A stretch of DNA of 64,000 nt from Bacillota bacterium (GTDB taxonomy: Bacteria > Bacillota > Clostridia > DUPQ01). The notes beneath the pieces were generated by a model. The model saw only the letters and a program-made list of their open reading frames with translations. It had not been told where the DNA came from and made no database searches. Both the position numbers and the translations under genes were made by a program. Where the stretch lies: contig DAINQB010000001.1 of assembly GCA_036743175.1 (NCBI GenBank), positions 69,135 through 133,134 on the forward strand, written 5' to 3'. This document shows positions 7,401 through 62,063 of the stretch, in pieces (position 1 is the stretch's first letter; each line of letters opens with the position of its first letter).

Positions 7401-7470
7401 TACAAAGTTGACAGGTATGCACATTTATATTCCCGCCTTAACAATACTTTTCCCTTAATTTTTTCATATA

Positions 7471-9143: not shown

Positions 9144-9314
9144 TTTTTCACCTCCGATGCGTAATACATCGTATTACATGATTACTATAGCATCCTGCCT
9201 AATTTATGTCAAATATGCTTTTTATTAAGTTTATCGTGAAAATTGGTATCAATATGTACATAGCACATCTATTTCTACGTCAAAGTACTCCCCGTTGTAC
9301 CTGAACGGAGTATA

Positions 9315-9887
9315 TCAGTTATGACTGCCCTTTATAAACTCAATATTTTTCATCAAATAGTCAATTCCACTGTAAATAGTCAGAACCACAGCAACAACCA
9401 TCAGTGCATCATCAAGGTACCACATGTCAATGATATCATTGAGCATCCAGGCAACTGATGCAATAATCTGCATAACTGTTTTCACTTTACCCCAGATACT
9501 TGCAGCTACTATCTTACCTTCTCCTGCAGCGATTGTTCTTATTCCCATTACCATGAGCTCCCTTGCAATGACAATAATGACTATCCAAACGGAAAGGTTG
9601 AATTTTACTACCAATACAAGCAGTGCTGCAAGAACCAGCAGCTTATCAGCAATGGGGTCCAGGAATTTTCCAAGATTGGTGACTTCATTCCTTTTTCTTG
9701 CAAGATTTCCGTCAATAATATCTGTTATTCCCGCAGCAATGAAAAGAAATATGGCTATATATGGACCGGCTGTGTCCATGAATGAACCAAGTCCCGACGG
9801 AAGCCAATCAGGAGCTGGTAATGCAAATATGAGGAAAAGAGGAATCAAAAGTATTCTTAGGAAAGTTATCTTGTTAGGCAGGTTCAT
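9315..9887 (-). CDS. pgsA: CDP-diacylglycerol--glycerol-3-phosphate 3-phosphatidyltransferase
   Basis: CDP-alcohol phosphatidyltransferase motif DGNLARKRNEVTNLGKFLDPIADK. Confidence 0.85.
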   Translation of the reverse strand: MNLPNKITFLRILLIPLFLIFALPAPDWLPSGLGSFMDTAGPYIAIFLFIAAGITDIIDGNLARKRNEVTNLGKFLDPIADKLLVLAALLVLVVKFNLSVWIVIIVIARELMVMGIRTIAAGEGKIVAASIWGKVKTVMQIIASVAWMLNDIIDMWYLDDALMVVAVVLTIYSGIDYLMKNIEFIKGSHN

Positions 9888-19611: not shown

Positions 19612-19647
19612 AAGCGGTCACGTTATCCGTCGGATGATGTGACCGCC
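19612..19647. repeat. 37-bp palindromic repeat, copy B
   Basis: aagcggtcacgttatccgtcggatgatgtgaccgcc; differs from copy A only at the central base and the last two bases. Overlaps the last codons of nrnA and lies 3 nt after the stop of the small lipoprotein gene. Confidence 0.8.
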
Positions 19648-21742: not shown

Positions 21743-21774
21743 GTTTTCCCCTCCTTTTCAGGCATGAATGATGC

Positions 21775-21810
21775 ACAAAAAGGAAGGGGGAAGGCATGCC
21801 TCCCCCTTAA
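21775..21810 (-). terminator. Intrinsic terminator of the sugar ABC transporter operon
   Basis: GC-rich hairpin AAGGGGGAGGCAUGCCUUCCCCCUU followed by CCUUUUU on the minus strand, 13 nt after the SBP stop codon. Confidence 0.65.
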
Positions 21811-21822
21811 TGAAAATCTACT

Positions 21823-23127
21823 TTAGTTTATACTTGCTGCTGCATCTGTGATAGCCTGGTCAACGGACTTGATTCCCGTTGCTGCTTCTTCAACTGCAGT
21901 TTCAACTGCCATTCTCACACTGTAGCTTTCCTTGAATACAGGGTCATAGATATACCATGCTCCGTCATATGATGTTCCGACATCCTTGGTCGGGTTTGTG
22001 CCAGCCTCAACATATGCAACATATTCAGGAAGTTCACGTGCACTTTCCCTTACAGGAAGATATCCGCTGTTCATAGCCCAGAGAGCTGTATTTTCAGGAG
22101 CCATGAGGAACTTCATGAATTCAAATGTAGCGAGCTGTCCTACTTCATCTGATTTCAGCATGAACATATTTGATCCCTGCTGGATGACCTTCTCAACTTT
22201 TCCGAATGGTACCATTGCTGCATTCCACTCGAAGGCATCGCTTCCGATGTAAGCTGAACCTGATGTTGAGCCTATGAACATTACAAGGTTCTGGTCATTG
22301 AAAGGACCTGAACAGTAGTTGTCTTCTCCTGCTGTCCTGAAATATCCGCCTTCTACTCCGTCGATGAAGAACTGGAGTGCTTCACGGGCTTCAGGGCTGT
22401 TGAACAGAACATCACCATTGTTGTTGGTATACTGTCCGCCTGCCTGCTGTGTCCATGTAATGAAGAGGTTGGAAAGTGAGTCATAACCAAATGCAGGTTT
22501 TCCAAGTATTTCTGAAGCTGCAATTGAAACATCCTTCAGTTCTTCCCAGGTCGTGGGAACTGTCAGGTTGTTTTCATTGAAGAATGTCTCATTGTAGTAA
22601 AGTACTTCGGTTGATTTGTTGAAAGGAAGTGAATAGAACTTACCATCAGGATAGTTGCTGTTTTCTTCCCTGTAACCTTGGATGATGTCTTCCCAGTCTT
22701 CTACACCAACCTGAGAGTCAAAGATATACTCGTCAAGCTGCACGATTGCATCTGAATCAAGGTAAACCATGATGTTGTTTGCATATGCCTGTGCAATATG
22801 AGGTATGTCTCCGCCCTGCAGAGCTGAAACAAGCTTGGTGTGGAGGTCTGTATATCCACCCTGGTATGTAGCTTCAACTGTGATGCCGAATTCATTTTCT
22901 TCATTGAACTTGGCTACTACCAAATCCAATGCCGCTCCGTTTGCTCCGCTCATTGCATGCCAGAACTGGAGTACCGTTCCATCAGGTATTTCGGGCCATT
23001 CCTTTGCAGGTTCCATTGAATCCGCAGGCTTTGATGCGTCCGGTTCCTCATTGCTGGTCTTGCAGGCTGCAAAGGATGCAACCATGAGAACTGCGAGCAA
23101 CAATGCTAGGATTTTTCTCATTTTCAT
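21823..23127 (-). CDS. Carbohydrate ABC transporter substrate-binding lipoprotein (SBP family 1)
   Basis: 434 aa. Lipoprotein signal LLAVLMVASFAAC; MalE/UgpB-like. Confidence 0.8.
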   Translation of the reverse strand: MKMRKILALLLAVLMVASFAACKTSNEEPDASKPADSMEPAKEWPEIPDGTVLQFWHAMSGANGAALDLVVAKFNEENEFGITVEATYQGGYTDLHTKLVSALQGGDIPHIAQAYANNIMVYLDSDAIVQLDEYIFDSQVGVEDWEDIIQGYREENSNYPDGKFYSLPFNKSTEVLYYNETFFNENNLTVPTTWEELKDVSIAASEILGKPAFGYDSLSNLFITWTQQAGGQYTNNNGDVLFNSPEAREALQFFIDGVEGGYFRTAGEDNYCSGPFNDQNLVMFIGSTSGSAYIGSDAFEWNAAMVPFGKVEKVIQQGSNMFMLKSDEVGQLATFEFMKFLMAPENTALWAMNSGYLPVRESARELPEYVAYVEAGTNPTKDVGTSYDGAWYIYDPVFKESYSVRMAVETAVEEAATGIKSVDQAITDAAASIN

Positions 23128-23174
23128 TTTTATTCTCCTTCTTATCCTTTATATTTGAACAGGTTTCCCCTGTA

Positions 23175-23996
23175 TCAACCCTTTATTCCTGAACGTGCTA
23201 CACCTTCAACGATATATCTTCTGAAGAACAGATATATCACAAGAAGAGGTGCTATGACTATGGTGCCTGCCGCCATCAGAAGTTCATAATCCGTTCCGGC
23301 CTCACCGCTGAAATACTTCAATCCTATTGACAATACCCTCTTGCTCTCTGAGTTTGTTAGCAGCAGAGGCCAGATGTATGCATTCCATGAGGCTATGAAA
23401 TTGAAAAGACCGATGGTAATAAGCGCATTCTTGGCATTTGGAACCATTATCCTCCAAAGATACCTCCAGTCCGATGTACCGTCCACCTTTGCAGCAAGAT
23501 AAAGCTGTTCGGGTATCTGATTGAAGAACTCCCTGAGAAGATATATATAGAATATACTTGCAGTGAACGGAATTATCAGGGCTAGCAGTGTATCCATCAG
23601 CTGCATTCTGACTGCTACGGTTACATAATTGGTTATGATCAGTATCTGGCTTGGAATCATGAGGGTTGACAGAAGTATTGAAAAAATCAAGTCCCTTCCC
23701 CTGAATTTCAGCCGTGAGAACGCAAAGGCTGCAAATATGGATGTTATGAGCACAGAAAGAGTTGTCCCCACAGAAACTATGACGGTATTTACAAAATATG
23801 TGTCAAAGGGTGCATATTCCAGTGCTGTTGCATAGTTTCCCCATTGTGCCGGAGCCGGCCACCATACTATGGGGGATGCGGTTATCTGGTTGTAGGTCTT
23901 CAGACTTCCGGTTATCATCCAGAAGAACGGGAACAGCATTATGATTGCACCGGCTGTCAGCAGTATATATGTAATTATTTTATATACATTCTTCAT
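23175..23996 (-). CDS. Carbohydrate ABC transporter permease (MalG/UgpE-like)
   Basis: 273 aa, 6 TM segments, EAA-like loop in the C-terminal half. Confidence 0.8.
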   Translation of the reverse strand: MKNVYKIITYILLTAGAIIMLFPFFWMITGSLKTYNQITASPIVWWPAPAQWGNYATALEYAPFDTYFVNTVIVSVGTTLSVLITSIFAAFAFSRLKFRGRDLIFSILLSTLMIPSQILIITNYVTVAVRMQLMDTLLALIIPFTASIFYIYLLREFFNQIPEQLYLAAKVDGTSDWRYLWRIMVPNAKNALITIGLFNFIASWNAYIWPLLLTNSESKRVLSIGLKYFSGEAGTDYELLMAAGTIVIAPLLVIYLFFRRYIVEGVARSGIKG

Positions 23997-24005
23997 GTCA
24001 TCCCC

Positions 24006-24917
24006 CTAATACTGGACCCTTTTCTTGCTTACCCTCAGCTGTATGAATGTGAATACAAGTATGATCAGGAACAAGATAACCGATGCTGCAGCAGCACGCG
24101 GAGGTTCGTTTGCTCCATAGAACAAATCATACACATAATAGACTATGGTCATTGCCGTATCTGCAGGTCCCGGATTGTTTCCATACAATCCCACAACCTC
24201 GACATAGGTCTTCAACGCACCGATGAAGGAAATAATACCTATGTAGAAAACCATGGGCGAAAGAAGCGGCAGTGTTATTTTAGTAAAGGTCCTCCACCTG
24301 GATGTATTGTCTATCTTTGCAGCCTGGTAATACTGCTTGTTGATTCCCTGTATGCCTGCAAGGAACACAACAATCTTGAATGCAAGCCCCGACCAGATTC
24401 CGAATATTATCAATGCAGGCAGTGAATACTTCGGGTCATTGAGCCACATTATCGAATCTATTCCGAAAAGTCCCAGGATTCTGTTTAATATTCCATATGT
24501 AGAATTGAATATGAATTTGAATGCCAGTCCTATAGCTATTAGGTTTGTGATATAAGGCAGGAAGAACATGGTTTCAAATACCTTCATGCCCTTGAGCTTG
24601 CTGTTCAGCAGAACCGCCGTGAACAGTGCTATAGCCATCGAAACCGGAACGACTACAATTGTATATATGGTGGTATTCTTAAGGGCCAGTATGAACCTGC
24701 CGTCATTGAGCACCCATTTGTAGTTGTCAAGTCCGAAGCCGCTTCCCGTATGCTTGAAGATATTGTAATCCTTGAAGAAACTGATCCATACAGACCTGAA
24801 CATGGGATATATTACAAAAACAGCTATCACTATCAGCGCAGGTGATAAATAAAGCAATGCTTTCAGTGTGGTTTTCCATCTGGGCTCAAACATAAAGCCT
24901 GTTCCCCTCCGTATCAA
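24006..24917 (-). CDS. Carbohydrate ABC transporter permease (MalF/UgpA-like)
   Basis: 303 aa; the start may be an internal Met since the ORF overlaps the ATPase gene's end. Confidence 0.8.
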   Translation of the reverse strand: MIRRGTGFMFEPRWKTTLKALLYLSPALIVIAVFVIYPMFRSVWISFFKDYNIFKHTGSGFGLDNYKWVLNDGRFILALKNTTIYTIVVVPVSMAIALFTAVLLNSKLKGMKVFETMFFLPYITNLIAIGLAFKFIFNSTYGILNRILGLFGIDSIMWLNDPKYSLPALIIFGIWSGLAFKIVVFLAGIQGINKQYYQAAKIDNTSRWRTFTKITLPLLSPMVFYIGIISFIGALKTYVEVVGLYGNNPGPADTAMTIVYYVYDLFYGANEPPRAAAASVILFLIILVFTFIQLRVSKKRVQY

Positions 24918-25935
24918 AGAGCATCATGGAATTATCCCTGAGTGAAAGACCAATGGTCTCACCCTTCTTGAACATTACATCCGCAGCATTTATAACAACC
25001 TTGCAAAGGCGTTCTCCAAGATAAACGAAAAGCAGGGTTTCACGGCCTGTATACTCCATTGCCTGGATGACAGCTTTAACAGGGCTGTTTGCGTCCAGTC
25101 TGAATGATTCAGGTCTTATCCCCACATGTACCTGCTGGTCGGCAAGTTTTCCCGTATCCATAACAAAGCCGCCTGCATCAACCCTGCCACCCTTGATTTC
25201 AGTCCCAATTATATTGATCGGTGGATTTCCAAGGAACTTTGCCACGAACTCATTGACGGGATTGCGGTACATTTCCTGCGGTGATGCTATCTGCTGCAGG
25301 AATCCTTCGTTCATTATGACAATCTGGTCAGATATGGACATGGCTTCTTCCTGGTCATGGGTTACGAATATTGTCGTGACTCCTGTTTCACGTTGAATTC
25401 TCTTGATTTCCTCCCTCATTTCCAGTCGCAGACGTGCATCAAGATTGGAAAGAGGCTCATCAAGCAGAAGTATCCTGGGTTCCTTGACCAGTGCCCTGGC
25501 TATTGCAACCCTCTGCTGCTGTCCTCCGGACATCTGTCCCGGTTTCCTTTGGAGAAGCTCTGAGATATGAACCAGCTTTGCCATCTCCAGGGCTCTTTTC
25601 CTTGCCTCCTTCTTCGGAATCCTGAGGTTCTGCAACGGAAACATAATGTTCTGTTCGGCAGTCATATGAGGATAAAGGGCATAATTCTGGAAAACAAGGC
25701 CTATTCCCCTCTTTTCCGGTTCCTTCCTTGTAACATCCTCATCATCAAAGAAAATTTTTCCTGAAGTAGCCTTGAAAAGGCCTGCTATAAGATACAGTGT
25801 CGTAGATTTACCGCAGCCCGACGGTCCGAGAAGACCTGTCAGCTTGCCTTCGAGGAATTCAAGGCTTGCATCGTTCACTGCAATGACTTCCTCGAATGCC
25901 TTGGTTAGATTCTCCAGTCTGACTTTCATAATCAA
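24886..25935 (-). CDS. ABC transporter ATP-binding protein (MalK/UgpC/MsmK-like)
   Basis: Walker A GPSGCGKST, signature LSGGQQQRVAIARAL, Walker B LLLDEPLS, C-terminal TOBE-like domain. Confidence 0.85.
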   Translation of the reverse strand: MIMKVRLENLTKAFEEVIAVNDASLEFLEGKLTGLLGPSGCGKSTTLYLIAGLFKATSGKIFFDDEDVTRKEPEKRGIGLVFQNYALYPHMTAEQNIMFPLQNLRIPKKEARKRALEMAKLVHISELLQRKPGQMSGGQQQRVAIARALVKEPRILLLDEPLSNLDARLRLEMREEIKRIQRETGVTTIFVTHDQEEAMSISDQIVIMNEGFLQQIASPQEMYRNPVNEFVAKFLGNPPINIIGTEIKGGRVDAGGFVMDTGKLADQQVHVGIRPESFRLDANSPVKAVIQAMEYTGRETLLFVYLGERLCKVVINAADVMFKKGETIGLSLRDNSMMLFDTEGNRLYV

Positions 25936-49277: not shown

Positions 49278-50453
49278 TTAATTTCCCTTCCTTCTTGTCA
49301 GGAATCTTTCCATTCTTTCAAGTGCTTCCTTGATATTTTCCATTGAACTTGCATATGTAGCACGCACATATCCTTCCCCGCTGTCACCGAAGGCAGTACC
49401 GGGTATGACAAGTACTTTTTCCTCCCTAAGCAATCCCTCACAGAATTCATCGCTGGTCATACCTGTGGAGGTTATATTGGGGAAGATATAAAATGCTCCC
49501 TGGGGTTCAAAGCACTTAAGACCGAGGTCCCTTACGCCCTTCAGAAGAAACTTTCTTCTCCTGTCGTATTCTCCCACCATGTCACTCACCTCGTCGTCGC
49601 AGTTACGAAGAGCCTCAATTCCGGCATACTGGGCAACCGTCGGAGCACACATCAGCGCATACTGGTGTATCTTGAACATATGCTTCACAAACCTTGCATC
49701 ACCGCAGACATATCCAAGTCTCCAGCCTGTCATGGCGTGACTCTTGGAAAACCCGTTGACCAGTATCAGTCTGTCACGGATTGACGGGAATGTTGCCATT
49801 GACCTGAACTCAAATCCATAGGTGAGTTCTGAATATATTTCATCGGAAATAATAAGCAGGTCCTTCTTTTCAAGTACCCTTACTATCTCCTCAAGCTCAG
49901 GCCCGGTCATTACCGATCCCGTCGGGTTGTTCGGAAAAGGTATTATCACTGCCTTGGTTTTATTGGTGATGGCCCTCTCAAGCGCACCGGGATCAATCTT
50001 GAACAAATTTTCTTCCTTAAGAGGAAGTGATACCGGTGTTCCCCCGTTTGTAAGCACACAGCCTTTGTATGCAACAAAACTTGGTTCAGGTACGATTACT
50101 TCATCACCCGGTTCAAGTATGGCACTGAGTGCCAGGTCAATTCCTTCACTGGCACCGACAGTTACTATAATCTCATTGTCCGGGTTATAGTGAGCTTTAT
50201 ACTTTCTGTCAAGATAAGTTGCAATCTCTTTTCTAAGCTCCTTTATCCCTGCATTTGCGGAATAATGGGTATGACCCTGTTCCAGTGCAAAAATACCGGC
50301 TTCTCTAATACTCCAAGGTGTTACGAAATCAGGTTCACCTATTCCAAGTGAAATCACACCTTCCAGTTCATTTATCAGGTCAAAATATTTCCGTATTCCC
50401 GAAGGCGGCATTGACCTTATGCTCTCCTTGATGAATCTCTCAGGTGTTGTCAT
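49278..50453 (-). CDS. Pyridoxal phosphate-dependent aminotransferase (class I, aspartate/aromatic type)
   Basis: 391 aa fold-type I aminotransferase with the PLP-Lys region SFSKSHAMTGWRLGY. Confidence 0.8.
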   Translation of the reverse strand: MTTPERFIKESIRSMPPSGIRKYFDLINELEGVISLGIGEPDFVTPWSIREAGIFALEQGHTHYSANAGIKELRKEIATYLDRKYKAHYNPDNEIIVTVGASEGIDLALSAILEPGDEVIVPEPSFVAYKGCVLTNGGTPVSLPLKEENLFKIDPGALERAITNKTKAVIIPFPNNPTGSVMTGPELEEIVRVLEKKDLLIISDEIYSELTYGFEFRSMATFPSIRDRLILVNGFSKSHAMTGWRLGYVCGDARFVKHMFKIHQYALMCAPTVAQYAGIEALRNCDDEVSDMVGEYDRRRKFLLKGVRDLGLKCFEPQGAFYIFPNITSTGMTSDEFCEGLLREEKVLVIPGTAFGDSGEGYVRATYASSMENIKEALERMERFLTRRKGN

Positions 50454-52919: not shown

Positions 52920-53046
52920 TACTGTCCCCTTGATAAAAAGTCTGCCCGGAACTTATTCTAACACATAAATAGCTTTGATTTGTACCATTTATCTGGGATA
53001 TACTACATAAAAAGTGTTTTATGCACGATTGAAAGTGTCAGCTGCA

Positions 53047-54415
53047 AGTCAAGTCCATAATTGTGTGTAAATTCTCCTCCGGAAAAATTCATATTGCTAC
53101 ACCTTCCCGAGGGTTCATGGCCGTGGGTCGGTCTTTTACATAATCATGATATTCTTCCATATTGAAATATTTCCTGCCACTTATCCATTTCTCATGCTGT
53201 TCCATCAGCAATGCTCCCAATAGTCTGATTATTGATTTCTCATTCGGGAATATCCGGATTACACGCTCACGTCTCCTGATTTCCTCATTCAGCCTTTCAA
53301 TGCAGTTTGATGTCCTCAGCCTTTTCCTGTAGTGCTCCGGTAGTGAAAAAACTGCAGTTATATCATCAAATGAATCATCAAGCAGTTTCATGGCCTTTGG
53401 GAACTCCTTCTTGTACCTTGCGACCATATCTGTTTTTCTGACAAGAGCACTGTCTTTGTCTGGTGCATTGTATATGTCAGTGAGATGTGCCTTGACCTCA
53501 GCTTTCCTTGTGTTTGGAACCTTGTCCAGCAGATTCTTTGAAAAGTGGGTCTGGCATCTCTGCCAGGATGCATTATGGAACTGTTTCTTTATTGCATTTA
53601 CAAGCCCCATATGGCTGTCACTTGTCATAATGTCAATGTTTGAAAGACCTCTGTCCTTAAGGGATATGAAAAACTTGTTCCATGACTCTTCGGACTCAGT
53701 GTCATCCACTGCAAATCCTATGATTTCCCTGTGTCCGTCAGTGATAATACCTATAGCTATCATTAGTCCCTTGTTCCTTACTATGTTGTTTTCCCTGGCC
53801 CTTGTGTACAAAGCATCAACTATTACAAAGAGGTAACTCTTATCAAGTGGTCTGTTCCTGAATTCAGCTACGATTGGATCCAGTCCCAGGCAAAGAGCCG
53901 ATACAGTTGATTTGGAGAACTCAGTGCCGCAAAGCTGCTGTGTAATCTCCTTTACCTTTCTTGTAGAGACACCATTGATTACCATTTCCATCATGGATAG
54001 TACCAATGCCTGCTCGCTGCGCTGGTATTCATGGAAGAGCGTGGTAGAGAAGTTTCCGTTTCTCAACCTGGGAATGGCCAGGGTGAGCTGTCCGATGCGC
54101 ACGTTCATGCTTCTGTCCCTCGTACCGTTCCTGTATGCGTTCCTGTCGTCAGATCTCTCATACTTCTGTGCTCCTATTTGTTCAGTTGCCTGAGCGTCCA
54201 AAACCTGGTTCAGGACCTTCTGCACCAGGTTCGCAAATGCCTTGTCTTTTGAATCTCCTGTAAAAAGCCCTTTAATATCTTCTCCATTCAGTGTAATATT
54301 GAATTGAGTCACGGTCTGAGTACCTCCTGTATTATTTATTTGTTATCGATTTAATTATACCGAAGGTCTCAGACTTTTTCTCTGAGTGAATTTACACCAT
54401 TATATGGACTTTATC
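53047..54415 (-). mobile_element. IS256-family insertion sequence, copy 1
   Basis: ~1.37 kb; imperfect terminal inverted repeats GT(C)AAGTCCATAATTGTGTGTAAATTC / GATAAAGTCCATATAATGGTGTAAATTC; encodes a 407-aa mutator-type transposase. Confidence 0.85.
53089..54312 (-). CDS. IS256 family transposase
   Basis: 407 aa with a mutator/IS256-type DDE transposase sequence; identical to the second copy. Confidence 0.9.
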   Translation of the reverse strand: MTQFNITLNGEDIKGLFTGDSKDKAFANLVQKVLNQVLDAQATEQIGAQKYERSDDRNAYRNGTRDRSMNVRIGQLTLAIPRLRNGNFSTTLFHEYQRSEQALVLSMMEMVINGVSTRKVKEITQQLCGTEFSKSTVSALCLGLDPIVAEFRNRPLDKSYLFVIVDALYTRARENNIVRNKGLMIAIGIITDGHREIIGFAVDDTESEESWNKFFISLKDRGLSNIDIMTSDSHMGLVNAIKKQFHNASWQRCQTHFSKNLLDKVPNTRKAEVKAHLTDIYNAPDKDSALVRKTDMVARYKKEFPKAMKLLDDSFDDITAVFSLPEHYRKRLRTSNCIERLNEEIRRRERVIRIFPNEKSIIRLLGALLMEQHEKWISGRKYFNMEEYHDYVKDRPTAMNPREGVAI

Positions 54416-54452
54416 AATATTAACAGTTAAAATAATCTATGCAATTAAATAC

Positions 54453-54764
54453 TTAGGCAAAAAAGTATACTATATCAGCATAACAATAATTTAAATCTAC
54501 TCCGTATACTTTATTAGTAATAGCAGTTGCGACTTCATATCCTTCAGAGTATCCTTGTCCTAAATGCTCTCCATAAGGACCGAAGAGATCTACCGCCACA
54601 TAAATATACTCATCATCACAATCCACTGTACCCCATCCACGACACCAAGTTGGATTATATCCACCATAAACACCGTAATCCACATCAAGCGCAAACACCG
54701 ATCCAACTACTGTAAATGAAAGTAACAATACAATAATCAGAATAATTCCTATTCTTTGTTTCAT
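54453..54764 (-). CDS. Small secreted Tyr/Trp/Gly-rich protein (paralog 1), unknown family
   Basis: 103 aa with signal peptide ending VFA; mature ~78 aa with 3 Cys; C-terminal motif EGYEVATA...VYGVDLNYCY shared with paralog 2; RBS AAAGGGGAAAGAG. Confidence 0.6.
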   Translation of the reverse strand: MKQRIGIILIIVLLLSFTVVGSVFALDVDYGVYGGYNPTWCRGWGTVDCDDEYIYVAVDLFGPYGEHLGQGYSEGYEVATAITNKVYGVDLNYCYADIVYFFA

Positions 54765-54820
54765 TCTCTTTCCCCTTTCAAAATAATAACACTTGAAACA
54801 TTGCTATCATCTATACCACT

Positions 54821-56395
54821 TTAATTTGATCTATAATTATATGTTGTAGTTTTTCCCATCCTTCCATTTATTTCCTCTAAAACTGATACCGCACCCATTC
54901 GGATAAAGTTTGTCTTATATTGCTTTATTGAGTCCTCAAGAAGAATATTTGAATCCAGAAAAGCTTCAATCCCATTAACATCATTAAATCTAAAATAACC
55001 AGCTTCAACATTAGTTGATCTAGTAAAAATCTGATTAAACACATTCTGTACATAAATCATACTACTTCTTAATGATTCAATTTTCTGCAGGCTCTCACCA
55101 TTATACGATAAGCCTTGTGATATTAAGCTGTTTGGTTTGATTGGTTTTAAGTCAGTAAAATTTCCTTTTTCAGGTAAAAAGGTATAAATCTCATCATTTA
55201 TTATTCTGTAATCAATGTTCTCAATACCAAAAGTAAAATCTAATGAGTAATCATCATCTGTAAAAATATTGTTGAATAAATACACCGTTTCATTAATATT
55301 TTCGATGTTTTTAGGGAACAAATAGAATGACAAATCACTTCGCACCTCACATACAAATTTGTCATTAATCCCTGTTAAACAGTACCCATTAACACTGTTA
55401 TATTGCTTATCTTCATTATAGAGATATAGATTAAAATCATCCGAGTTTGCCGAATATATATAACGATACTCTGAGGCAAAATCCTTGCTAATATTGTCTA
55501 AGTTCTCGATAAATACATTTCTTGTTTGGTCAATTGCAGGGTCAAACATATATCTATATCCATATATTGCCATCAAGTCTTCTCCGATTAAATTCCTGAG
55601 AAATTCGAGGGCTTCCTGTGAATTGTCAGAAAATACACCATCCTCAAAAGAATCCGTGAGAGGATTAAATGAAACTGTTGTATTAAATTCAGTGTTAAAA
55701 TAAACTCCATATGCGCGCATAATATCAGATGTACTTTGCGCTAAATATGGCCTACTTATACACAATGGATAATATAATAATTCCCCTTCATAATTATCCT
55801 TGCTCCTGCGAAGGTAGTCATAAAACTCGCTTAAGGTTTCTGGGACATTTAGATTAAGTTTGTTGAGAATTTCAGCATTGTAATAACGAGGAACAGCATA
55901 TTTATTTTCTATGGTTGGTACAGCATATATTGCTCCATCTATCGTTAGTGCATCAATGTAATCACCGTTGACATACTGGTCCCATCCATAGTACTCATAA
56001 TAATCGCTTAAGTCGTAAGCCAAATGTGCTTTACTGTAGTCAAGAATGTCTGTATTGAATTGATATACTTGTCCTCTTTGGTAGCTTAAATATAAAATGC
56101 CTGTGGGATCTACTTCAAGAAGATTTTCTGGGCTAATTCCTGAATAATCAATATAAATCTCCTTATCAAATTTTTCTTTTATATATTTTTGCCAGTTATC
56201 AATGGCTTCATAATCTCCCCATTTATATACAGGGTAGATAATTGACAAGTTATTGATATATTCACTAGGAACCACATTTTTATCCTCAACATTTACATTA
56301 GGTATTTTAGTAATATCGGGATTTTGTTCTTTACTGCCACAAGCAACCATTGATACAATAATGACCAATATAATATATATTAATACTTTTTTCAC
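54821..56395 (-). CDS. Orphan extracellular solute-binding-like lipoprotein (SBP family 1, LplA/YesO-like)
   Basis: 524 aa; GTG start behind GGAGG; lipoprotein signal VSMVAC; IDGAIYAVP motif typical of sugar SBPs; no permease or ATPase genes adjacent. Confidence 0.6.
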   Translation of the reverse strand: MKKVLIYIILVIIVSMVACGSKEQNPDITKIPNVNVEDKNVVPSEYINNLSIIYPVYKWGDYEAIDNWQKYIKEKFDKEIYIDYSGISPENLLEVDPTGILYLSYQRGQVYQFNTDILDYSKAHLAYDLSDYYEYYGWDQYVNGDYIDALTIDGAIYAVPTIENKYAVPRYYNAEILNKLNLNVPETLSEFYDYLRRSKDNYEGELLYYPLCISRPYLAQSTSDIMRAYGVYFNTEFNTTVSFNPLTDSFEDGVFSDNSQEALEFLRNLIGEDLMAIYGYRYMFDPAIDQTRNVFIENLDNISKDFASEYRYIYSANSDDFNLYLYNEDKQYNSVNGYCLTGINDKFVCEVRSDLSFYLFPKNIENINETVYLFNNIFTDDDYSLDFTFGIENIDYRIINDEIYTFLPEKGNFTDLKPIKPNSLISQGLSYNGESLQKIESLRSSMIYVQNVFNQIFTRSTNVEAGYFRFNDVNGIEAFLDSNILLEDSIKQYKTNFIRMGAVSVLEEINGRMGKTTTYNYRSN

Positions 56396-56435
56396 TCATT
56401 GCCTCCACTAAAATATTGATGGTAGCATAGAATTA

Positions 56436-56765
56436 TTATTTAAACATCCAATATGGGGCATTTACATAACAATAGTTAGGGTCATACCCCCAAACCCTAG
56501 GTGTATCTGCCGTAGCCCATCCAAAGCCTTCGCCATCATCCTGAGCTAATAACCAATTAGAACCAACCAGTCTTAGTTCTGCTGTTATATATATGTAGTA
56601 ACTTGGGAAATAACCTATTTCTGCCCATCCAGCTACCCAATAATCATCTTCGACTTGGTCATATGCGCCATAAGCCCAAAAGTGATATCCATCTGTTGCA
56701 GAAACTGTCGACATAAAAGAAAACACAACAGCAATCAAAATAAACAATATTAATATTTTTTTCAT
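56436..56765 (-). CDS. Small secreted Tyr/Trp/Gly-rich protein (paralog 2), unknown family
   Basis: Track ORF starts at a TTG (56783); the likely start is ATG MKKILILF at 56765 behind RBS GAGAGAAGGGG. Signal peptide ends VSA; mature ~86 aa; C-terminus EGFGWATAD...VWGYDPNYCY is homologous to paralog 1. Confidence 0.6.
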   Translation of the reverse strand: MKKILILFILIAVVFSFMSTVSATDGYHFWAYGAYDQVEDDYWVAGWAEIGYFPSYYIYITAELRLVGSNWLLAQDDGEGFGWATADTPRVWGYDPNYCYVNAPYWMFK

Positions 56766-57359
56766 ATTTTCCCCTTCTCTCAATTTGCTTTTATTTCTAT
56801 ACTACCACCATTTATAGTATAGCGTATGATTACTTACTAGTCAATTAATTTTATTTCTTCTGTTTCTAAACGAAAGATGATATCTAATAAGTGTATTTTT
56901 ACTCCTTATGACAAGTGTAATACTCCTCCCATATGTTCATTTTTTGAAAATTAACTAGAATCCTTCGATTTAATTTAGTGTCCAAGCCCTTTATCCGTAT
57001 TCACCTTCTAAGATTCTAAATCTTACAATGACTGTAAATTTATATAGGCCATATTCATATGAACTTTTAATACAATTAACTTATAAAAAAACACTCTTAT
57101 TATAGGAATCTCCAGATAAGAGTTAGTAATGGTGGTGCGCTGATAATCTTATCCTACGTTTCAGTTCGAAAAAGTACAAATAGCAAATAGCATCAGACAC
57201 TGTTTCATGCCCTAATCCTATTAATTAGCCAGAAAATATAGAAATCAGTTTTAAACTTACTATTATTTTTAAAGCTATTGTATTTTAACGTATATATATC
57301 TATAATTATATTGAATTTATTTTACATTGACTACCATTTCTTTATAACGAGGAATAAAT

Positions 57360-58725
57360 AGTTAAGTCCATATTTGTGTGTAAATTCTCCTCCGGAAAAA
57401 TTCATATTGCTACACCTTCCCGAGGGTTCATGGCCGTGGGTCGGTCTTTTACATAATCATGATATTCTTCCATATTGAAATATTTCCTGCCACTTATCCA
57501 TTTCTCATGCTGTTCCATCAGCAATGCTCCCAATAGTCTGATTATTGATTTCTCATTCGGGAATATCCGGATTACACGCTCACGTCTCCTGATTTCCTCA
57601 TTCAGCCTTTCAATGCAGTTTGATGTCCTCAGCCTTTTCCTGTAGTGCTCCGGTAGTGAAAAAACTGCAGTTATATCATCAAATGAATCATCAAGCAGTT
57701 TCATGGCCTTTGGGAACTCCTTCTTGTACCTTGCGACCATATCTGTTTTTCTGACAAGAGCACTGTCTTTGTCTGGTGCATTGTATATGTCAGTGAGATG
57801 TGCCTTGACCTCAGCTTTCCTTGTGTTTGGAACCTTGTCCAGCAGATTCTTTGAAAAGTGGGTCTGGCATCTCTGCCAGGATGCATTATGGAACTGTTTC
57901 TTTATTGCATTTACAAGCCCCATATGGCTGTCACTTGTCATAATGTCAATGTTTGAAAGACCTCTGTCCTTAAGGGATATGAAAAACTTGTTCCATGACT
58001 CTTCGGACTCAGTGTCATCCACTGCAAATCCTATGATTTCCCTGTGTCCGTCAGTGATAATACCTATAGCTATCATTAGTCCCTTGTTCCTTACTATGTT
58101 GTTTTCCCTGGCCCTTGTGTACAAAGCATCAACTATTACAAAGAGGTAACTCTTATCAAGTGGTCTGTTCCTGAATTCAGCTACGATTGGATCCAGTCCC
58201 AGGCAAAGAGCCGATACAGTTGATTTGGAGAACTCAGTGCCGCAAAGCTGCTGTGTAATCTCCTTTACCTTTCTTGTAGAGACACCATTGATTACCATTT
58301 CCATCATGGATAGTACCAATGCCTGCTCGCTGCGCTGGTATTCATGGAAGAGCGTGGTAGAGAAGTTTCCGTTTCTCAACCTGGGAATGGCCAGGGTGAG
58401 CTGTCCGATGCGCACGTTCATGCTTCTGTCCCTCGTACCGTTCCTGTATGCGTTCCTGTCGTCAGATCTCTCATACTTCTGTGCTCCTATTTGTTCAGTT
58501 GCCTGAGCGTCCAAAACCTGGTTCAGGACCTTCTGCACCAGGTTCGCAAATGCCTTGTCTTTTGAATCTCCTGTAAAAAGTCCTTTAATATCTTCTCCAT
58601 TCAGTGTAATATTGAATTGAGTCATGTCTGAGTACCTCCTGTATTTTTGTTTTTTCTCAATTTAATTATACCGAAGGTCTCAGACTTTTCTCTGAGTGAA
58701 TTTACACCATTATATGGACTTTATC
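57360..58725 (-). mobile_element. IS256-family insertion sequence, copy 2
   Basis: Same termini and same orientation as copy 1; the encoded transposase is identical. Confidence 0.85.
57402..58625 (-). CDS. IS256 family transposase
   Basis: Identical 407-aa product to 53089..54312. Confidence 0.9.
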   Translation of the reverse strand: MTQFNITLNGEDIKGLFTGDSKDKAFANLVQKVLNQVLDAQATEQIGAQKYERSDDRNAYRNGTRDRSMNVRIGQLTLAIPRLRNGNFSTTLFHEYQRSEQALVLSMMEMVINGVSTRKVKEITQQLCGTEFSKSTVSALCLGLDPIVAEFRNRPLDKSYLFVIVDALYTRARENNIVRNKGLMIAIGIITDGHREIIGFAVDDTESEESWNKFFISLKDRGLSNIDIMTSDSHMGLVNAIKKQFHNASWQRCQTHFSKNLLDKVPNTRKAEVKAHLTDIYNAPDKDSALVRKTDMVARYKKEFPKAMKLLDDSFDDITAVFSLPEHYRKRLRTSNCIERLNEEIRRRERVIRIFPNEKSIIRLLGALLMEQHEKWISGRKYFNMEEYHDYVKDRPTAMNPREGVAI

Positions 58726-58756
58726 CAGCTGCATTAAATACTTTAAGAGGTGACAC

Positions 58757-59671
58757 ATGAAAAGATATCCGGCAGTAATAATGGCAACGGCAGTAATACC
58801 CTGGGACAATGATTATAAATTCATCCGGGATAGTTTCACAAGGCAGGTTGAGCACCTGTGCAACAATGGAATCAAAAACATCTACCTGTTCGGAACCGCC
58901 GGAGAAGGTCATGCGGTCAGCAACAGACAATTCAGTGAAATCACTGCATGCTTCAAGGACCTGTCCGGAAGCCTGGGTTTCACACCCATGGTGGGGCTGA
59001 TTGACCTTTCAGTGCATAGAATGCTTGAAAAACTGGATATTGCATATTCCATGGGAATCCGTGAATACCAGTTTTCCCTTCCTTCATGGGGAAGCCTGAA
59101 CGACAAGGAAGTGGATGACTTCTTTGATGTATTGCTGGGCTCCCGGCCTGACTGCCTGTTCCTCAATTATAATCTCAGCCGGACAAAGCGATTCCTGGAA
59201 CCTTCGGAATTGTTCCGGCAGGCTGAAAAACACAATAATTTTGCAGCAGTTAAATATACCAGAGGTTTGCCTGAAGACTTCATCGCCATAGCAGAATCCA
59301 ATACACCGCTCCAATTCTTTGTAACAGAAAAGAATTTCATGGAATTGTCACGGCTCACTGAGTGCGGTCTTCTTATGTCCGTGGGTAATTCAGACCTTAG
59401 GCGTGCAGTACAATTGGTCAGGCTGTGTATGACGGGCAGACATGACGAAGCGCAGGTCCACTTTGATGTCTTCATGAAGATTCGGGACGAATTACTGAAA
59501 GCCGTTGATTTTCCGGCCATCGACAGTGCTTATGATAAGTTATTTACAAAACTCGAGATTGAAGATTTCCCGTTGAGACTGCTGCCACCCTACCAATATA
59601 CGACTGATGAGGCTTTTGGGATTTTCAGGGATGCTGCAGCTTCAATCCTTGGCCAGAACCCTTTGGATTGA
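58757..59671 (+). CDS. DapA/NAL-family class I aldolase (dihydrodipicolinate synthase-like)
   Basis: 304 aa; LFGTAGEGHAVS matches the DapA-family GTTGE region. Starts 24 nt after the transposon TSD. Confidence 0.6.
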   Translation: MKRYPAVIMATAVIPWDNDYKFIRDSFTRQVEHLCNNGIKNIYLFGTAGEGHAVSNRQFSEITACFKDLSGSLGFTPMVGLIDLSVHRMLEKLDIAYSMGIREYQFSLPSWGSLNDKEVDDFFDVLLGSRPDCLFLNYNLSRTKRFLEPSELFRQAEKHNNFAAVKYTRGLPEDFIAIAESNTPLQFFVTEKNFMELSRLTECGLLMSVGNSDLRRAVQLVRLCMTGRHDEAQVHFDVFMKIRDELLKAVDFPAIDSAYDKLFTKLEIEDFPLRLLPPYQYTTDEAFGIFRDAAASILGQNPLD

Positions 59672-60829
59672 TTCAACAGCGGCAACAACCCGTCTTGCAG
59701 GACACGCTATGTTCAGCCTTATGAAGCCTCTTCCTTCTTCTCCGAAGATACTGCCCGGGTCCACCAGCAGCCCTTCCAGACGTTCAAGGTCTTTTGCAAA
59801 CGCCATGTCATCATTGACGCCTGCATTTCCAAGGTCAAGCCAGGCGAGATACGTACCTTCCGGTATGATGAAACCCATTCCCGGGATTTTTTCCTGCAGA
59901 CATTCCTTAAGAAGCCTGAAATTACCATCTATGTACCTGCTTACCTGCTCGAGCCATTCAGCTCCGTTATCATATGCGGCAATATATGCTTCGGCACTCA
60001 GTGGATTTGTCATTCCAAGGCTGAGGATGCCATATGCCCGGTTCTTCCAACGTTCCTTAAGTTCCTGGTTTTCAATTATCACCACTGAAATTGCCAGACC
60101 CGGTATATTGAAGGTCTTGCTGGGAGCGGTAAGTGTAATGGTATTCATCCTGTCCCCGGCCAGGGCTGCAGGTGTGAATTCAGTTCCATCCCTTGTAATG
60201 TCCATATGTATTTCATCACTGACAAGAAGAACATCATTTTCACTGCACAATCTTCCGACTTCATGCAATTCCTGTTCTGTCCAGACACGTCCCACCGGAT
60301 TATGCGGCGAACACAATATCATAAGCTTATTGGCAGGATCCATGACCATGGCTTCCAGGTCTGCAAAATCCATGGAATATCTTCCGCCATGGCAAATAAG
60401 TGGATTTACCACAACCCTTCTTCCGGCTGCCTCTATTGTCTTCCTGAAGGGATAGTATACAGGAGTCTGTATTATTATTCCGTCACCCGGCTCAGTGAAT
60501 TCACTGACAGCTACTCCCAGGGATGTCACAACACCCGGTGCTACCAGTACATCATTGCATGCCGGACTCCATCCATATCTTTTTGATATCCAATTACAGA
60601 TAGCACCGGGAACCTTATCCCTGTCAAACAATGAGTAACCATAGACCGGATGTGCCGCTCTTTTTTCAATTGCACTGACTATCGGTTTGGCACAGGGAAA
60701 ATCCATGTCCGCAACCCACATGGAATTTACTTCTCCATCGTAGCGAACATGTCCCATCCTGAAGTTCCGGTCCCATTTCAACGAAGCAGTGTTGCTTCTG
60801 TCAGGCATCCGGTCAAAATCATATTTCAT
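59642..60829 (-). CDS. patB: MalY/PatB-type PLP-dependent C-S lyase (cystathionine beta-lyase family)
   Basis: Likely start MKYDFDRMPDRSNTASLKWD, a PatB/MalY hallmark; fold-type I aminotransferase. Confidence 0.75.
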   Translation of the reverse strand: MKYDFDRMPDRSNTASLKWDRNFRMGHVRYDGEVNSMWVADMDFPCAKPIVSAIEKRAAHPVYGYSLFDRDKVPGAICNWISKRYGWSPACNDVLVAPGVVTSLGVAVSEFTEPGDGIIIQTPVYYPFRKTIEAAGRRVVVNPLICHGGRYSMDFADLEAMVMDPANKLMILCSPHNPVGRVWTEQELHEVGRLCSENDVLLVSDEIHMDITRDGTEFTPAALAGDRMNTITLTAPSKTFNIPGLAISVVIIENQELKERWKNRAYGILSLGMTNPLSAEAYIAAYDNGAEWLEQVSRYIDGNFRLLKECLQEKIPGMGFIIPEGTYLAWLDLGNAGVNDDMAFAKDLERLEGLLVDPGSIFGEEGRGFIRLNIACPARRVVAAVESIQRVLAKD

Positions 60830-60830
60830 A

Positions 60831-62063
60831 TCAGATTTTAAGTCCTTCTTTAATTCTTCTGACTGCTTCCACTGTATTTTCCCTGGTTCCAAATGCAGTC
60901 AACCTGAAATATCCTTCGCCACTGGGACCGAATCCGGAACCCGGTGTCCCGACTACATTCACTTCGTTCAGCAGCTTGTCAAAGAGCTCCCATGAAGTCA
61001 TTCCTGCGGGTGTTCTGAGCCATATGTAAGGAGCATTTATACCACCATAGACTTCCAGACCTATTTCCCTGAGGCCCTCACGGATTATAGATGCGTTTTT
61101 CATGTAATATGCTATGGTTTCTGCCGTCTGCTTCTTGCCTTCCTCAGTATATACGGCAGCAGCACCCTTTTGGATAATATATGATACCCCATTGAACTTG
61201 GTGCTTACGCGCCTTGCCCACAGTTTGTTTATTGAAACCTCACTCCCGTCAGACGACTTTGCCATGAGTTCCTTCGGAACAACTGTATAAGCACATCTTG
61301 TTCCTGTGAACCCGGCTTTCTTGGAATAACTTCGAAACTCGACGGCAACCTTCTTTGCCCCATCTATTTCGAATATTGACCTTGGTACGTCATCCTCTGA
61401 GATATAAGCCGCATAAGCAGCATCATATAAAATTATGGAGCCGTTCGCAGATGCATAATCCACCCACTTCTTCAGTTCATCCCTGCCCAGTGTCGTACCC
61501 GTGGGATTGTTGGGAGAACAAAGGTAAATGATATCCGCACTTTTTGAAGGCAGTTCCGGCTTGAAATTATTTTCAGCAGTACAAGGCATGTAAATGACAT
61601 TGCTCCACCTGCCGTCAATGAAGTCGCCTGTTCTTCCGGCCATGGCATTTGTATCGACATATACAGGATATACCGGGTCTGTAACGGCTATTGTATTGTC
61701 AGTCCCGAATATTTCCTGAAAATTTCCTGTATCACACTTGGCTCCGTCACTGACGAAGATTTCGTCCTGATCCAGTTCAACCCCTCTGCTTCTATAATCG
61801 TTTTCGATTATTGCATTTATAAGAAAATCGTAACCCTGGTCAGGCCCATAACCCTTGAATGTTTCTCCCTTTGACATGTCGTCGACCGCATTGTGCAATG
61901 CCCTTACAATCTCTTCGTTCAAAGGCTGTGTTACATCACCTATTCCCAGGCTGATTACATTCGCACCCGGATTCGAAGCCTTGTACTTGTTGACCCGGTT
62001 CCTGATTTCTGCAAAGAGATAATTGCCAGGCAGTTTCAGATAGTTCTCGTTGATTTTAAGCAT
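60831..62063 (-). CDS. dapL: LL-diaminopimelate aminotransferase
   Basis: [21 protein letters not shown]-terminus typical of DapL; 410 aa; adjacent to dapF. Confidence 0.85.

What the first reader, a model, noticed from the sequence alone, without database searches (positions are those of the whole stretch)
54453..56765. Two paralogous small secreted Tyr/Trp/Gly-rich proteins with a shared ...NYCY C-terminus flanking a lipoprotein
The 103-aa and 115-aa products both have cleavable signal peptides and aromatic-rich mature domains of ~78-86 aa (Y+W+F roughly 25%). Their C-termini align clearly: EGYEVATAITNKVYGVDLNYCYADIVYFFA vs EGFGWATADTPRVWGYDPNYCYVNAPYWMF, and DEYIYVAVDLFG vs SYYIYITAELRLVG. 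They bracket a 524-aa lipoprotein in a tight same-strand operon (40 and 56 nt spacers, each with a strong RBS). I do not recognise the family. Size, secretion, the Cys pattern and the mobile context are compatible with bacteriocin-like or exotoxin peptides and a cognate lipoprotein (immunity or receptor), or with an uncharacterised surface complex.
Basis: partly seen in the sequence, partly recalled or inferred. Interest (0 to 1): 0.75.

Follow-up and report, generated by a model that had tools for sequence, protein, structure and literature searches.

The report
Transposon-borne secreted proteins with orphan lipoprotein
Two related small secreted proteins from a new and very rare family flank a sugar-binding-type lipoprotein gene as the only cargo of a jumping-gene element in a Clostridia chromosome; the small proteins always travel with this kind of lipoprotein, but whether the pair captures sugars or attacks rival bacteria is still open.

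Summary
Three same-strand genes (109-aa, 524-aa lipoprotein, 103-aa) form a tight operon, and the two small products are true paralogues (33% identity; 0 of 5000 shuffles match).

The operon is the sole, low-GC (31.6% against 44%) cargo of an IS256-family composite transposon (53047-58725) with an 8-bp target duplication.

The small proteins belong to a new family with only six clusters among 5.8 billion proteins. Each has a Sec signal, and the mature protein is an acidic, roughly 80-aa beta-sandwich (pLDDT 89.5).

The NYCY/Cys motif and the aromatic richness are not family-wide.

The closest relative sits at the end of an amino-sugar catabolic gene array.

Best reading, about 0.35: a cell-surface carbohydrate recognition pair. 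Rival, about 0.2: a bacteriocin-like effector with a lipoprotein immunity or decoy partner.

The parts
53039..53046 (.). Left copy of the 8-bp target-site duplication CAGCTGCA
   Evidence: the same octamer abuts the outer end of IS copy A here and the outer end of IS copy B at 58726-58733.
53047..54415 (-). IS256-family insertion sequence, copy A (1369 bp). The transposase is 53089-54312, 407 aa.
   Evidence: Pfam Transposase_mut E=1.5e-128; 99.2% identical to copy B; imperfect terminal inverted repeats; blastn hits to annotated IS256-family transposases.
54416..57359 (-). Transposon cargo (2944 bp, 31.6% GC against 44.2% in the host and 42.9% in the IS)
   Evidence: It contains only the three-gene operon and its leader.
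54453..54764 (-). Small secreted protein 2 (103 aa; 25-aa signal peptide; 78-aa acidic mature domain, pI 4.05)
   Evidence: It is P0031 in public data. A stop-loss variant of 114 aa exists in L002.
54821..56395 (-). Orphan lipoprotein (524 aa, GTG start, lipobox VSMVA|C) with a divergent sugar-type solute-binding-protein fold
56436..56765 (-). Small secreted protein 1 (109 aa from ATG 56765; 23-aa signal peptide; 86-aa acidic mature domain, pI 4.05)
   Evidence: (P0001). The AF2 model has pLDDT 89.5 and is all-beta.
56816..56844 (-). Candidate sigma-70-type promoter TTGACT-17-TATACT, about 50 nt upstream of the first gene
   Evidence: 10 of 12 consensus matches. This is a consensus match only and is not evidence of function.
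56766..57359 (-). AT-rich non-coding leader (27% GC). A different IS256-family element is inserted at about 57115 in metagenome contig L002.
   Evidence: no Rfam match; no direct repeats; the L002 junction.
57360..58725 (-). IS256-family insertion sequence, copy B (1366 bp). The transposase is 57402-58625, 407 aa.
   Evidence: It is in direct orientation with copy A and differs by 8 mismatches and 3 indels, clustered at the ends.
58726..58733 (.). Right copy of the 8-bp target-site duplication CAGCTGCA
   Evidence: The same octamers flank a single hybrid IS at this site in contig L064.

Best explanation
SHOWN. An IS256-family composite transposon (53047-58725, 8-bp target duplication) sits in a Clostridia chromosome between an amidohydrolase gene and a DHDPS-like gene. 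Its only cargo is a foreign, low-GC three-gene operon.

The middle gene encodes a membrane-tethered lipoprotein with a very divergent sugar-type solute-binding-protein (SBP) fold. It belongs to a lineage-specific, multi-copy family that is never encoded next to ABC-importer permeases.

The two flanking genes are ancient duplicates. They encode Sec-exported, acidic beta-sandwich proteins of about 80 residues, from a new family with only six sequence clusters in public data.

Wherever this family occurs, it lies immediately upstream of, and co-diverges with, a lipoprotein of this family.

INFERRED. The small protein and the lipoprotein work together as a pair, probably in physical contact, on the outer face of the membrane.

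My preferred reading is a carbohydrate recognition or capture module. The tethered SBP-fold lipoprotein binds an amino-sugar-containing glycan, and the secreted beta-sandwich protein is its accessory partner. The transposon has mobilised this module into a new host.

It is not demonstrably a Lactococcin-972-type bacteriocin system.
For: Transposon:
- Two IS copies are 99.2% identical.
- The transposase matches Transposase_mut at E=1.5e-128.
- The 8-bp TSD flanks the whole unit.
- There is a GC step.
- The same cassette is about 100% identical on 15 metagenome contigs.
- A hybrid solo IS occupies the same site in L064.

Pairing:
- All six small-protein clusters sit directly upstream of a lipoprotein homologue.
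- The partnered lipoproteins fall in two clades that mirror the small-protein subgroups.
- dN/dS is 0.15-0.18.

Carbohydrate reading:
- PDB profile hits are sugar SBPs.
- The closest relative pair (L014/L067) ends a tight co-directional array of ROK-like, URO-D-like, NagB and N-acyl-D-glucosamine 2-epimerase genes.
- L070 repeats the epimerase upstream, and L024 has a URO-D-like gene upstream.
- Unpartnered paralogues sit beside GH2, GH42/35 and BNR genes.
Against: - No importer permease or CUT1 ATPase is encoded in any of 48 lipoprotein loci, so classical ABC uptake is unsupported.
- The small proteins match no CBM family.
- Their aromatic residues are not positionally conserved.
- They have no cell-anchoring motif.
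- The sugar-catabolic context is seen in one clade only (L014/L067/L070), with a weaker hint in L024.
- IS-flanked, sporadic, duplicated small secreted genes are typical of antagonism modules.
- No direct evidence of physical interaction could be obtained, because no multimer prediction was available.
Confidence: 0.35

Rival explanations
1. Antagonism module. The small proteins are Sec-dependent, unmodified beta-sandwich bacteriocin-like effectors, sharing a fold with the Lactococcin 972 family. The lipoprotein is the producer's immunity factor, which intercepts the effector at the surface. It could act as LanI-type lipoproteins do, or as a resistant decoy copy of a core-genome lipoprotein that is the effector's receptor or target.
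For: - The precursor architecture of 109/23/86 aa matches the validated Clostridia Lcn972-family bacteriocin mediterrocin, at 114/25/89 (PMC12345188).
- A W-x-x-G-x-G motif aligns to the Lcn972 GTWQHGYG motif.
- The cassette is IS-flanked more than once.
- Its distribution is sporadic.
- The gene is duplicated.
- The small protein and lipoprotein co-diverge.
- The partner is a diverged paralogue of a core-genome family, as in target-duplication self-resistance.
Against: - There is no Pfam or NCBIfam Lactococcin_972 hit for any member, even at E<=10.
- The profile finds no Lcn972 in the PDB.
- The full-length hhalign hit is driven by signal peptides. The mature-only score of 11.5 lies within the column-shuffle null, which has mean 8.8 and maximum 14.6.
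- Foldseek finds nothing at E<=0.001 and Lcn972 is not in its top 50.
- All six members are strongly acidic (pI 4.05-4.35), whereas seven Lcn972-family proteins have pI 6.95-9.7. This is not a proteome-wide trait.
- Six of six Firmicute Lcn972 loci carry a DUF1430-type membrane protein and an ABC ATPase, both absent here.
- No precedent for an SBP-like immunity lipoprotein was found.
- The native context of the closest relative is metabolic.
Confidence: 0.2
2. Signalling or envelope-biogenesis pair. The orphan SBP-fold lipoprotein is a surface sensor or assembly factor, in the way orphan SBPs partner sensor kinases or regulate glycolipid synthesis. The small secreted protein is its protein ligand or modulator, and neither nutrition nor killing is involved.
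For: - The family is consistently orphan, with 0 permeases in 48 loci.
- At least seven distinct paralogue loci lie between rnfAB and a DUF4330/glycosyltransferase/MurJ/Wzy polysaccharide cluster.
- Pairing with the small protein is strict.
Against: - No sensor kinase or regulator is adjacent in the partnered loci.
- Nothing in the transposon cargo could transduce a signal.
- Only two sub-clades of the lipoprotein family have the partner.
Confidence: 0.12
3. There is no functional coupling. The small genes are merely co-transcribed neighbours, or decaying ORFs, that hitch-hike with the lipoprotein gene.
For: The function of every part is unknown, and most lipoprotein paralogues (about 30 loci) do without any small partner.
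Against: - Five independent locus types all keep the same order and short spacing (40-170 nt).
- There is purifying selection, with dN/dS 0.15-0.18.
- The AF2 fold is confident from only six sequences.
- The small proteins co-diverge with the lipoprotein clades.
- Chance adjacency of two rare families five times over is negligible.
Confidence: 0.05

Closest known systems
Lactococcin 972 family bacteriocins (Pfam PF09683 / TIGR01653; Lcn972 PDB 2LGN, Formosin D 9HKJ, mediterrocin)
   Same: - Both are found in Gram-positive (Bacillota) hosts.
- Both have a Sec signal peptide of about 23-25 aa and an unmodified mature protein of 66-89 aa.
- Both have an N-terminal W-x-x-G motif.
- Both are often found next to mobile elements.
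   Different: - There is no significant sequence or profile similarity once signal peptides are removed.
- Foldseek does not confirm the match.
- The small proteins are strongly acidic, whereas the Lcn972 family is neutral to cationic.
- The partner gene is an SBP-fold lipoprotein, not a DUF1430 seven-TM protein plus ABC ATPase.
Large oligo/polysaccharide-binding family-1 SBPs of ABC importers (Smon0123 5XS8, Blon_2347 6FTH, AlgQ2 4TQU, FusA 5G5Y)
   Same: - It is lipid-anchored in a Gram-positive host.
- Its size class is about 500 aa.
- In one relative it neighbours sugar-catabolic genes.
   Different: - Identity is only 11-14%.
- The Pfam SBP_bac_8 score is below the gathering threshold, at 23.9 bits against 27. 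The window's own canonical SBP scores 151 bits.
- It is never next to permease or ATPase genes.
- There are several paralogues per genome in non-transport contexts.
- It is paired with a small secreted protein.
IS256-family composite transposons (for example Tn4001-type structures)
   Same: - Two directly repeated IS256-family elements bracket the cargo.
- The transposase is a Mutator/IS256 DDE type.
- There are imperfect terminal inverted repeats.
- There is an 8-bp target duplication.
   Different: - The cargo is not a resistance gene but an uncharacterised secreted-protein and lipoprotein operon.
- The IS is only about 73% identical to any IS256-family element in PLSDB plasmids.
LanI-type lantibiotic immunity lipoproteins (NisI, SpaI)
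   Same: The concept is the same: a surface-tethered lipoprotein encoded beside a secreted antimicrobial peptide and proposed to intercept it. This is established knowledge and was not tested here.
   Different: The fold and size are unrelated. No Pfam hit other than SBP_bac_8 was found at E<=1, and no lantibiotic machinery is present.

Membership tests
Lactococcin 972 family bacteriocin | Significant match to the family sequence model (PF09683 / TIGR01653) or to family members | tested here: not met
   There was no hit in Pfam at E<=10 for any of the 6 members, in NCBIfam at E<=1, or with the profile against the PDB at E<=10. The mature-only hhalign score of 11.5 (probability 0.4%) lies within the column-shuffle null.
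Lactococcin 972 family bacteriocin | Sec-type signal peptide and an unmodified mature protein of about 65-90 aa | tested here: met
   All six members show n/h/c regions with small residues at -3/-1, and mature domains of 77-89 aa. This is by inspection only, with no dedicated predictor.
Lactococcin 972 family bacteriocin | Lcn972-like six-stranded beta-sandwich fold | tested here: inconclusive
   [not shown]
Lactococcin 972 family bacteriocin | Adjacent DUF1430-type multi-pass membrane protein and ABC ATPase (immunity) | tested here: not met
   These are present in 6 of 6 Firmicute reference loci. They are absent from the cargo and from all partnered relatives.
Lactococcin 972 family bacteriocin | Neutral to cationic mature protein (a typical property of the lipid II binder, not a formal criterion) | tested here: not met
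   The small proteins have pI 4.05-4.35 and net charge -6 to -14. Seven family members have pI 6.95-9.70 and net charge 0 to +5.
Lactococcin 972 family bacteriocin | Antimicrobial activity / lipid II binding | not testable with these tools
   This needs purified protein and indicator strains.
Family-1 (CUT1-type) ABC-importer solute-binding protein | Two-lobe SBP fold | tested here: met
   [not shown]
Family-1 (CUT1-type) ABC-importer solute-binding protein | Pfam SBP_bac_1/8 match above the gathering score | tested here: not met
   SBP_bac_8 scores 23.9 bits against a cutoff of 27. PDB profile hits reach only E about 2e-5 over 55 residues.
Family-1 (CUT1-type) ABC-importer solute-binding protein | Encoded with cognate permease and ATPase genes | tested here: not met
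   phmmer with the window's own CUT1 permeases found 0 hits in the ORFs of 48 lipoprotein loci. The ATPase hits there are MacB, ABC-F or exporter types.
Family-1 (CUT1-type) ABC-importer solute-binding protein | Lipoprotein signal with lipobox Cys (Gram-positive SBPs) | tested here: met
   The Cys is invariant in 26 homologues, and lipobox-like L/I-x-G/A-C appears across the loci.
IS256-family composite transposon | Two copies of one IS bracketing the cargo, a Mutator/IS256 transposase, and terminal inverted repeats | tested here: met
   Searches show 99.2% identity between the copies. One search gives the transposase match at E=1.5e-128. One search shows 26-28 of 40 matching IR positions. One search gives annotated IS256-family hits.
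IS256-family composite transposon | 8-9 bp target-site duplication flanking the whole unit | tested here: met
   CAGCTGCA is at 53039-53046 and 58726-58733.
IS256-family composite transposon | Movement of IS-cargo-IS as one unit | tested here: inconclusive
   L064 has a single A-left/B-right hybrid IS with the same TSD at the same site. This fits cargo loss or gain by IS x IS recombination, or assembler collapse. No second insertion site of the whole unit was seen.
Carbohydrate-binding module (CBM) | Match to a CBM family model, or a conserved aromatic binding platform | tested here: not met
   No CBM Pfam hit was found at E<=10. The invariant residues are W20, G23, L41, T65 and G70 only, and aromatic content drops to 0.13 in L041.

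The most novel reading that the evidence does not exclude
The small proteins are a new class of Sec-dependent, anionic beta-sandwich bacteriocins that share only their fold with Lactococcin 972. Producer immunity comes from a transposon-borne decoy paralogue of a core-genome SBP-fold lipoprotein that is the toxin's receptor or target on sensitive cells. This would be a protein-toxin version of 'self-resistance by target duplication', not the usual DUF1430/ABC immunity system.
Probability: 0.15. Interest if true: 0.75.

Novelty: new variant of a known kind. Interest (0 to 1): 0.45.

Why it matters
If the pairing reflects a physical complex, it defines a previously undescribed accessory partner for SBP-fold lipoproteins in Gram-positive bacteria. 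It would also give a handle on a whole lineage-specific family of 'orphan' SBP lipoproteins whose role is unknown.

If instead the bacteriocin reading is right, it would extend the Lcn972 fold to acidic proteins with a completely different immunity principle.

Either way, the cassette is a clean, minimal, mobile three-gene unit of 2.9 kb. It has already been captured by two different IS256-family elements, which makes it easy to test by heterologous expression.

Its impact is limited by extreme rarity: six clusters, all from uncultured Clostridia.

Tried and rejected
1. Word-indexed search with the 109-aa protein found only itself.
2. Exhaustive HMMER of 1.84 billion representatives with the two-paralogue profile found only the two window proteins. 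It also returned a TIR/NB-ARC/TPR protein (P0032) whose TPR repeats match by composition. I rejected that hit as spurious.
3. A metagenome pattern scan with the small-protein profile found no relatives.
4. A second metagenome scan with the lipoprotein profile found 13 loci, none with a small partner.
5. Foldseek against afdb50 was not available on the machine.
6. The full-length hhalign hit to the Lcn972 family (probability 79%, E=1.6e-5) looked promising. I rejected it after trimming signal peptides and running 200 column shuffles.
7. A viral-contig scan for Lcn972 relatives and a tblastn with the Formosin D fragment found nothing.
8. PADLOC, PHROGs, and tblastn of the small protein and the lipoprotein against plasmids and phages found nothing meaningful.
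9. Rfam on the whole transposon, a repeat search in the leader, and a terminator fold after the last gene found nothing.
10. Acidity as a proteome-wide trait was rejected. The median pI of the window's ORFs is 5.55.
11. A second small gene downstream of the lipoprotein was looked for in the relatives and not found.
12. A literature search found no precedent for an SBP-like immunity lipoprotein.
Full report
**Observation**

The three ORFs exist on the minus strand exactly where reported. They are 54453-54764 (103 aa), 54821-56395 (524 aa, GTG start) and a first gene ending at 56436.

The first gene is best read from ATG 56765 (109 aa), which has an AAGGGG RBS. The 115-aa reading starts at a TTG (56783) with no RBS, and public gene calls also give 109 aa.

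The intergenic spacers are 40 and 56 nt, each with an RBS.

Both small products have a typical n/h/c signal peptide ending VSA|T and VFA|L, which leaves mature domains of 86 and 78 aa. Y+W+F is 26.7% and 21.8%.

Their similarity spans the whole mature domain. BLASTP gives E=1e-8 and 33% identity. None of 5000 composition-preserving shuffles reaches the observed score of 101, and the best shuffle scores 76. So the paralogy is real and is not a by-product of aromatic-rich composition.

The middle protein has a lipobox (VSMVA|C), and its Cys is invariant in 26 homologues.

**Setting**

The operon is flanked by two direct copies of a 1.37-kb IS, at 53047-54415 and 57360-58725. The copies are 99.2% identical. 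Each encodes a 407-aa Mutator/IS256-family transposase (Pfam E=1.5e-128), and blastn finds annotated IS256-family relatives. Each has imperfect terminal inverted repeats.

The octamer CAGCTGCA lies immediately outside both outer ends. That is the 8-bp target duplication expected of the IS256 family, and it flanks the whole IS-cargo-IS unit.

The cargo (54416-57359) is 31.6% GC. The surrounding chromosome is 44.2% and the IS is 42.9%. The chromosome encodes PolC, DivIVA and RF-1. The cargo holds nothing besides the three genes, a candidate promoter (TTGACT-17-TATACT) and an AT-rich leader. The leader has no Rfam match and no repeats.

The same cassette is about 100% identical on 15 metagenome contigs. 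One of them, L002, has a different IS256-family element inserted in the leader at about 57115. Its transposase is only 35% identical to the window's. L002 also carries a stop-loss allele that extends the 103-aa protein to 114 aa.

A 66.6-kb contig from another sample, L064, has the same chromosomal site with a single IS and no cargo. That IS is an exact hybrid. Its left end carries the copy-A variants and its right end carries all nine copy-B variants, and it is flanked by the same octamers. This is what IS x IS recombination would leave after cargo loss, or conversely the site into which cargo was captured. Assembler collapse across the repeat cannot be excluded.

**The small proteins**

No Pfam, NCBIfam, PHROG, PADLOC or PDB sequence match exists, and tblastn against plasmids and phages finds nothing.

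An exhaustive HMMER pass over 1.84 billion representatives with the two-paralogue profile returned only the two proteins themselves. It also returned a spurious TPR protein.

Distant relatives came to light only by searching the ORFs next to lipoprotein homologues. A profile search then found six clusters in 5.8 billion proteins: the two window proteins, P0034 (L014), P0033 (L017/L042/L043), P0035 (L024/L071) and P0036 (L041).

The closer pairs give dN/dS of 0.15-0.18, so these are genuine genes.

Across the family only W20, G23, L41, T65 and G70 are invariant. The NYCY motif and the Cys pattern are confined to the window pair, and L014 has no Cys in its mature domain. Aromatic content falls to 0.13-0.17 in the second subgroup.

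All six are strongly acidic, with pI 4.05-4.35 and net charge -6 to -14. This is not a general trait of the proteome, whose median pI is 5.55.

AlphaFold2 with six sequences gives a confident all-beta model with pLDDT 89.5 and pTM 0.77.

**The lipoprotein**

It has about 28 homologues at 36-45% identity, all in uncultured Clostridia MAGs and often several per genome.

I used that canonical importer's permeases as probes. No BPD-type permease turned up in any of 48 lipoprotein loci, so the family is consistently 'orphan'.

Unpartnered paralogues occupy conserved core positions:
- rnfA-rnfB, then the lipoprotein, then two DUF4330 genes and glycosyltransferase/MurJ/Wzy genes, in at least seven loci.
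- MacB-type ABC, then the lipoprotein, then a Zn-ribbon gene and GH2, in three loci.
- Tandem duplicates.

**The partnership**

Every small-protein cluster lies directly upstream of a lipoprotein homologue, on the same strand and 40-170 nt apart.

The converse is not true. About 30 lipoprotein loci have no small partner.

The partnered lipoproteins form two clades, window+L014 and L017+L024. The small proteins split the same way: win103 and L014 are 36% identical, and L017, L024 and L041 are 45-57% identical to each other. So the two genes are inherited together and diverge together.

The small-lipoprotein-small arrangement is unique to the window.

**Testing the bacteriocin idea**

The precursor architecture also matches mediterrocin, a validated Lcn972-family bacteriocin from a Clostridia species. 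Mediterrocin has a 114-aa precursor with a 25-aa signal and an 89-aa mature protein, and is only 18% identical to Lcn972 (PMC12345188).

Every further test was negative:
- Foldseek finds nothing at E<=0.001 and does not list Lcn972 in its top 50.
- I assembled seven diverse Lcn972-family sequences from annotated plasmids. Full-length hhalign gave 79% probability, but that signal comes from the signal peptides. With mature domains only, the score is 11.5, inside the column-shuffled null of mean 8.8, SD 1.75 and maximum 14.6. Only a short W-x-x-G-x-G motif aligns to GTWQHGYG.
- The Lcn972-family proteins are neutral to cationic (pI 6.95-9.7), which is opposite to the acidic small proteins here.
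- All six Firmicute reference loci have a DUF1430-type membrane protein and an ABC ATPase. Nothing of the kind is present here or in the relatives.

I therefore do not file these proteins as Lcn972-family members. A shared fold remains possible.

**Evidence for a carbohydrate role**

Besides the lipoprotein's structural neighbours, the closest relative pair (L014, full contig L067) ends a tight co-directional array. The order is an unknown 464-aa protein, a ROK-like protein, a URO-D/MtaA-like protein, NagB, N-acyl-D-glucosamine 2-epimerase (NCBIfam 390 bits), the small protein, then the lipoprotein.

An independent contig, L070, repeats the epimerase upstream. L024, from the other clade, has a URO-D-like gene directly upstream.

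Other paralogues neighbour GH2, GH42/35 and BNR genes.

Three points count against this reading. No transporter is encoded nearby. The small proteins match no CBM family and lack a conserved aromatic platform. The metabolic context is clear in one clade only.

**Verdict**

The cassette is a mobile operon carried on an IS256 composite transposon. It pairs a new, extremely rare family of secreted acidic beta-sandwich proteins with a sub-branch of an orphan SBP-fold lipoprotein family.

I favour a surface carbohydrate recognition or capture pair (about 0.35) over a bacteriocin-like effector with a lipoprotein immunity or decoy partner (about 0.2). A signalling or envelope role (about 0.12) and no functional coupling (about 0.05) trail these. 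The remainder is unassigned.

Interest is moderate. The pairing is novel and cleanly testable, but the taxonomic reach is narrow and the function is unresolved.

Noticed in passing
L064 (JGI 3300010350, 66.6-kb contig), locus coordinates about 2508-3873; corresponds to window 53039-58733: The same chromosomal site carries a single IS and no cargo. The IS is an exact A-left/B-right hybrid of the window's two copies, with the same CAGCTGCA duplication. This is either a recombinational loss or gain allele or an assembly collapse.
   Followed up: yes
L002 1-1722 (junction at window ~57115) and L002 4074-4418: A second, different IS256-family element (395-aa transposase, 35% identical) is inserted in the operon leader. 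The same contig has a TAA-to-TAT stop-loss that extends the 103-aa protein to 114 aa.
   Followed up: partly
L009 7200-7628 (= L016 3080-3508): Three tandem repeats of about 130 nt lie between MacB-type ABC genes and an unpartnered lipoprotein paralogue. They read as a spurious repetitive 142-aa ORF on both strands.
   Followed up: no
L011/L018, L021, L046, L047, L050, L051, L054: There is a conserved synteny of rnfA-rnfB, a lipoprotein paralogue, two DUF4330 genes, then glycosyltransferase/MurJ/Wzy genes, in at least seven distinct loci. This suggests that some members of the orphan SBP-fold family act in cell-envelope polysaccharide biology.
   Followed up: partly
L015 3274-3918; L017 5635-6054; L024 ~3030-3410: IS21-type IstA and IstB fragments, and another transposase fragment, lie immediately downstream of lipoprotein homologues. 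So association of this gene family with insertion sequences is recurrent.
   Followed up: no
window 19623-25935: This stretch holds a canonical CUT1 sugar ABC importer: an ATPase with a TOBE domain, two BPD permeases, and a 434-aa SBP at 151 bits. Next to it are a secreted SNase+DUF5689 nuclease-like protein and a DHH/DHHA1 phosphoesterase.
   Followed up: partly
window 4001-10000: This is a lower-GC stretch (0.37-0.39 against about 0.45). It contains an MBOAT-family O-acyltransferase (5991-7400), an adjacent 466-aa protein with no Pfam match (4566-5966) and a VTT-domain membrane protein. It may be another acquired region.
   Followed up: no
window 49278-50453, 59642-60892, 60831-62063: Three class I/II aminotransferase paralogues lie around the insertion site. 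Two of them are adjacent and overlap by about 60 nt, and an ORF at 59607-60455 (+) overlaps one of them antisense.
   Followed up: no
L060 2293-2607 and L061 3260-3574 (Macrococcus plasmids): Some Lcn972-family operons carry an extra small YxeA-family gene between the DUF1430 membrane protein gene and the ABC ATPase gene. This is another case of a small exported protein embedded in a bacteriocin/immunity module.
   Followed up: no
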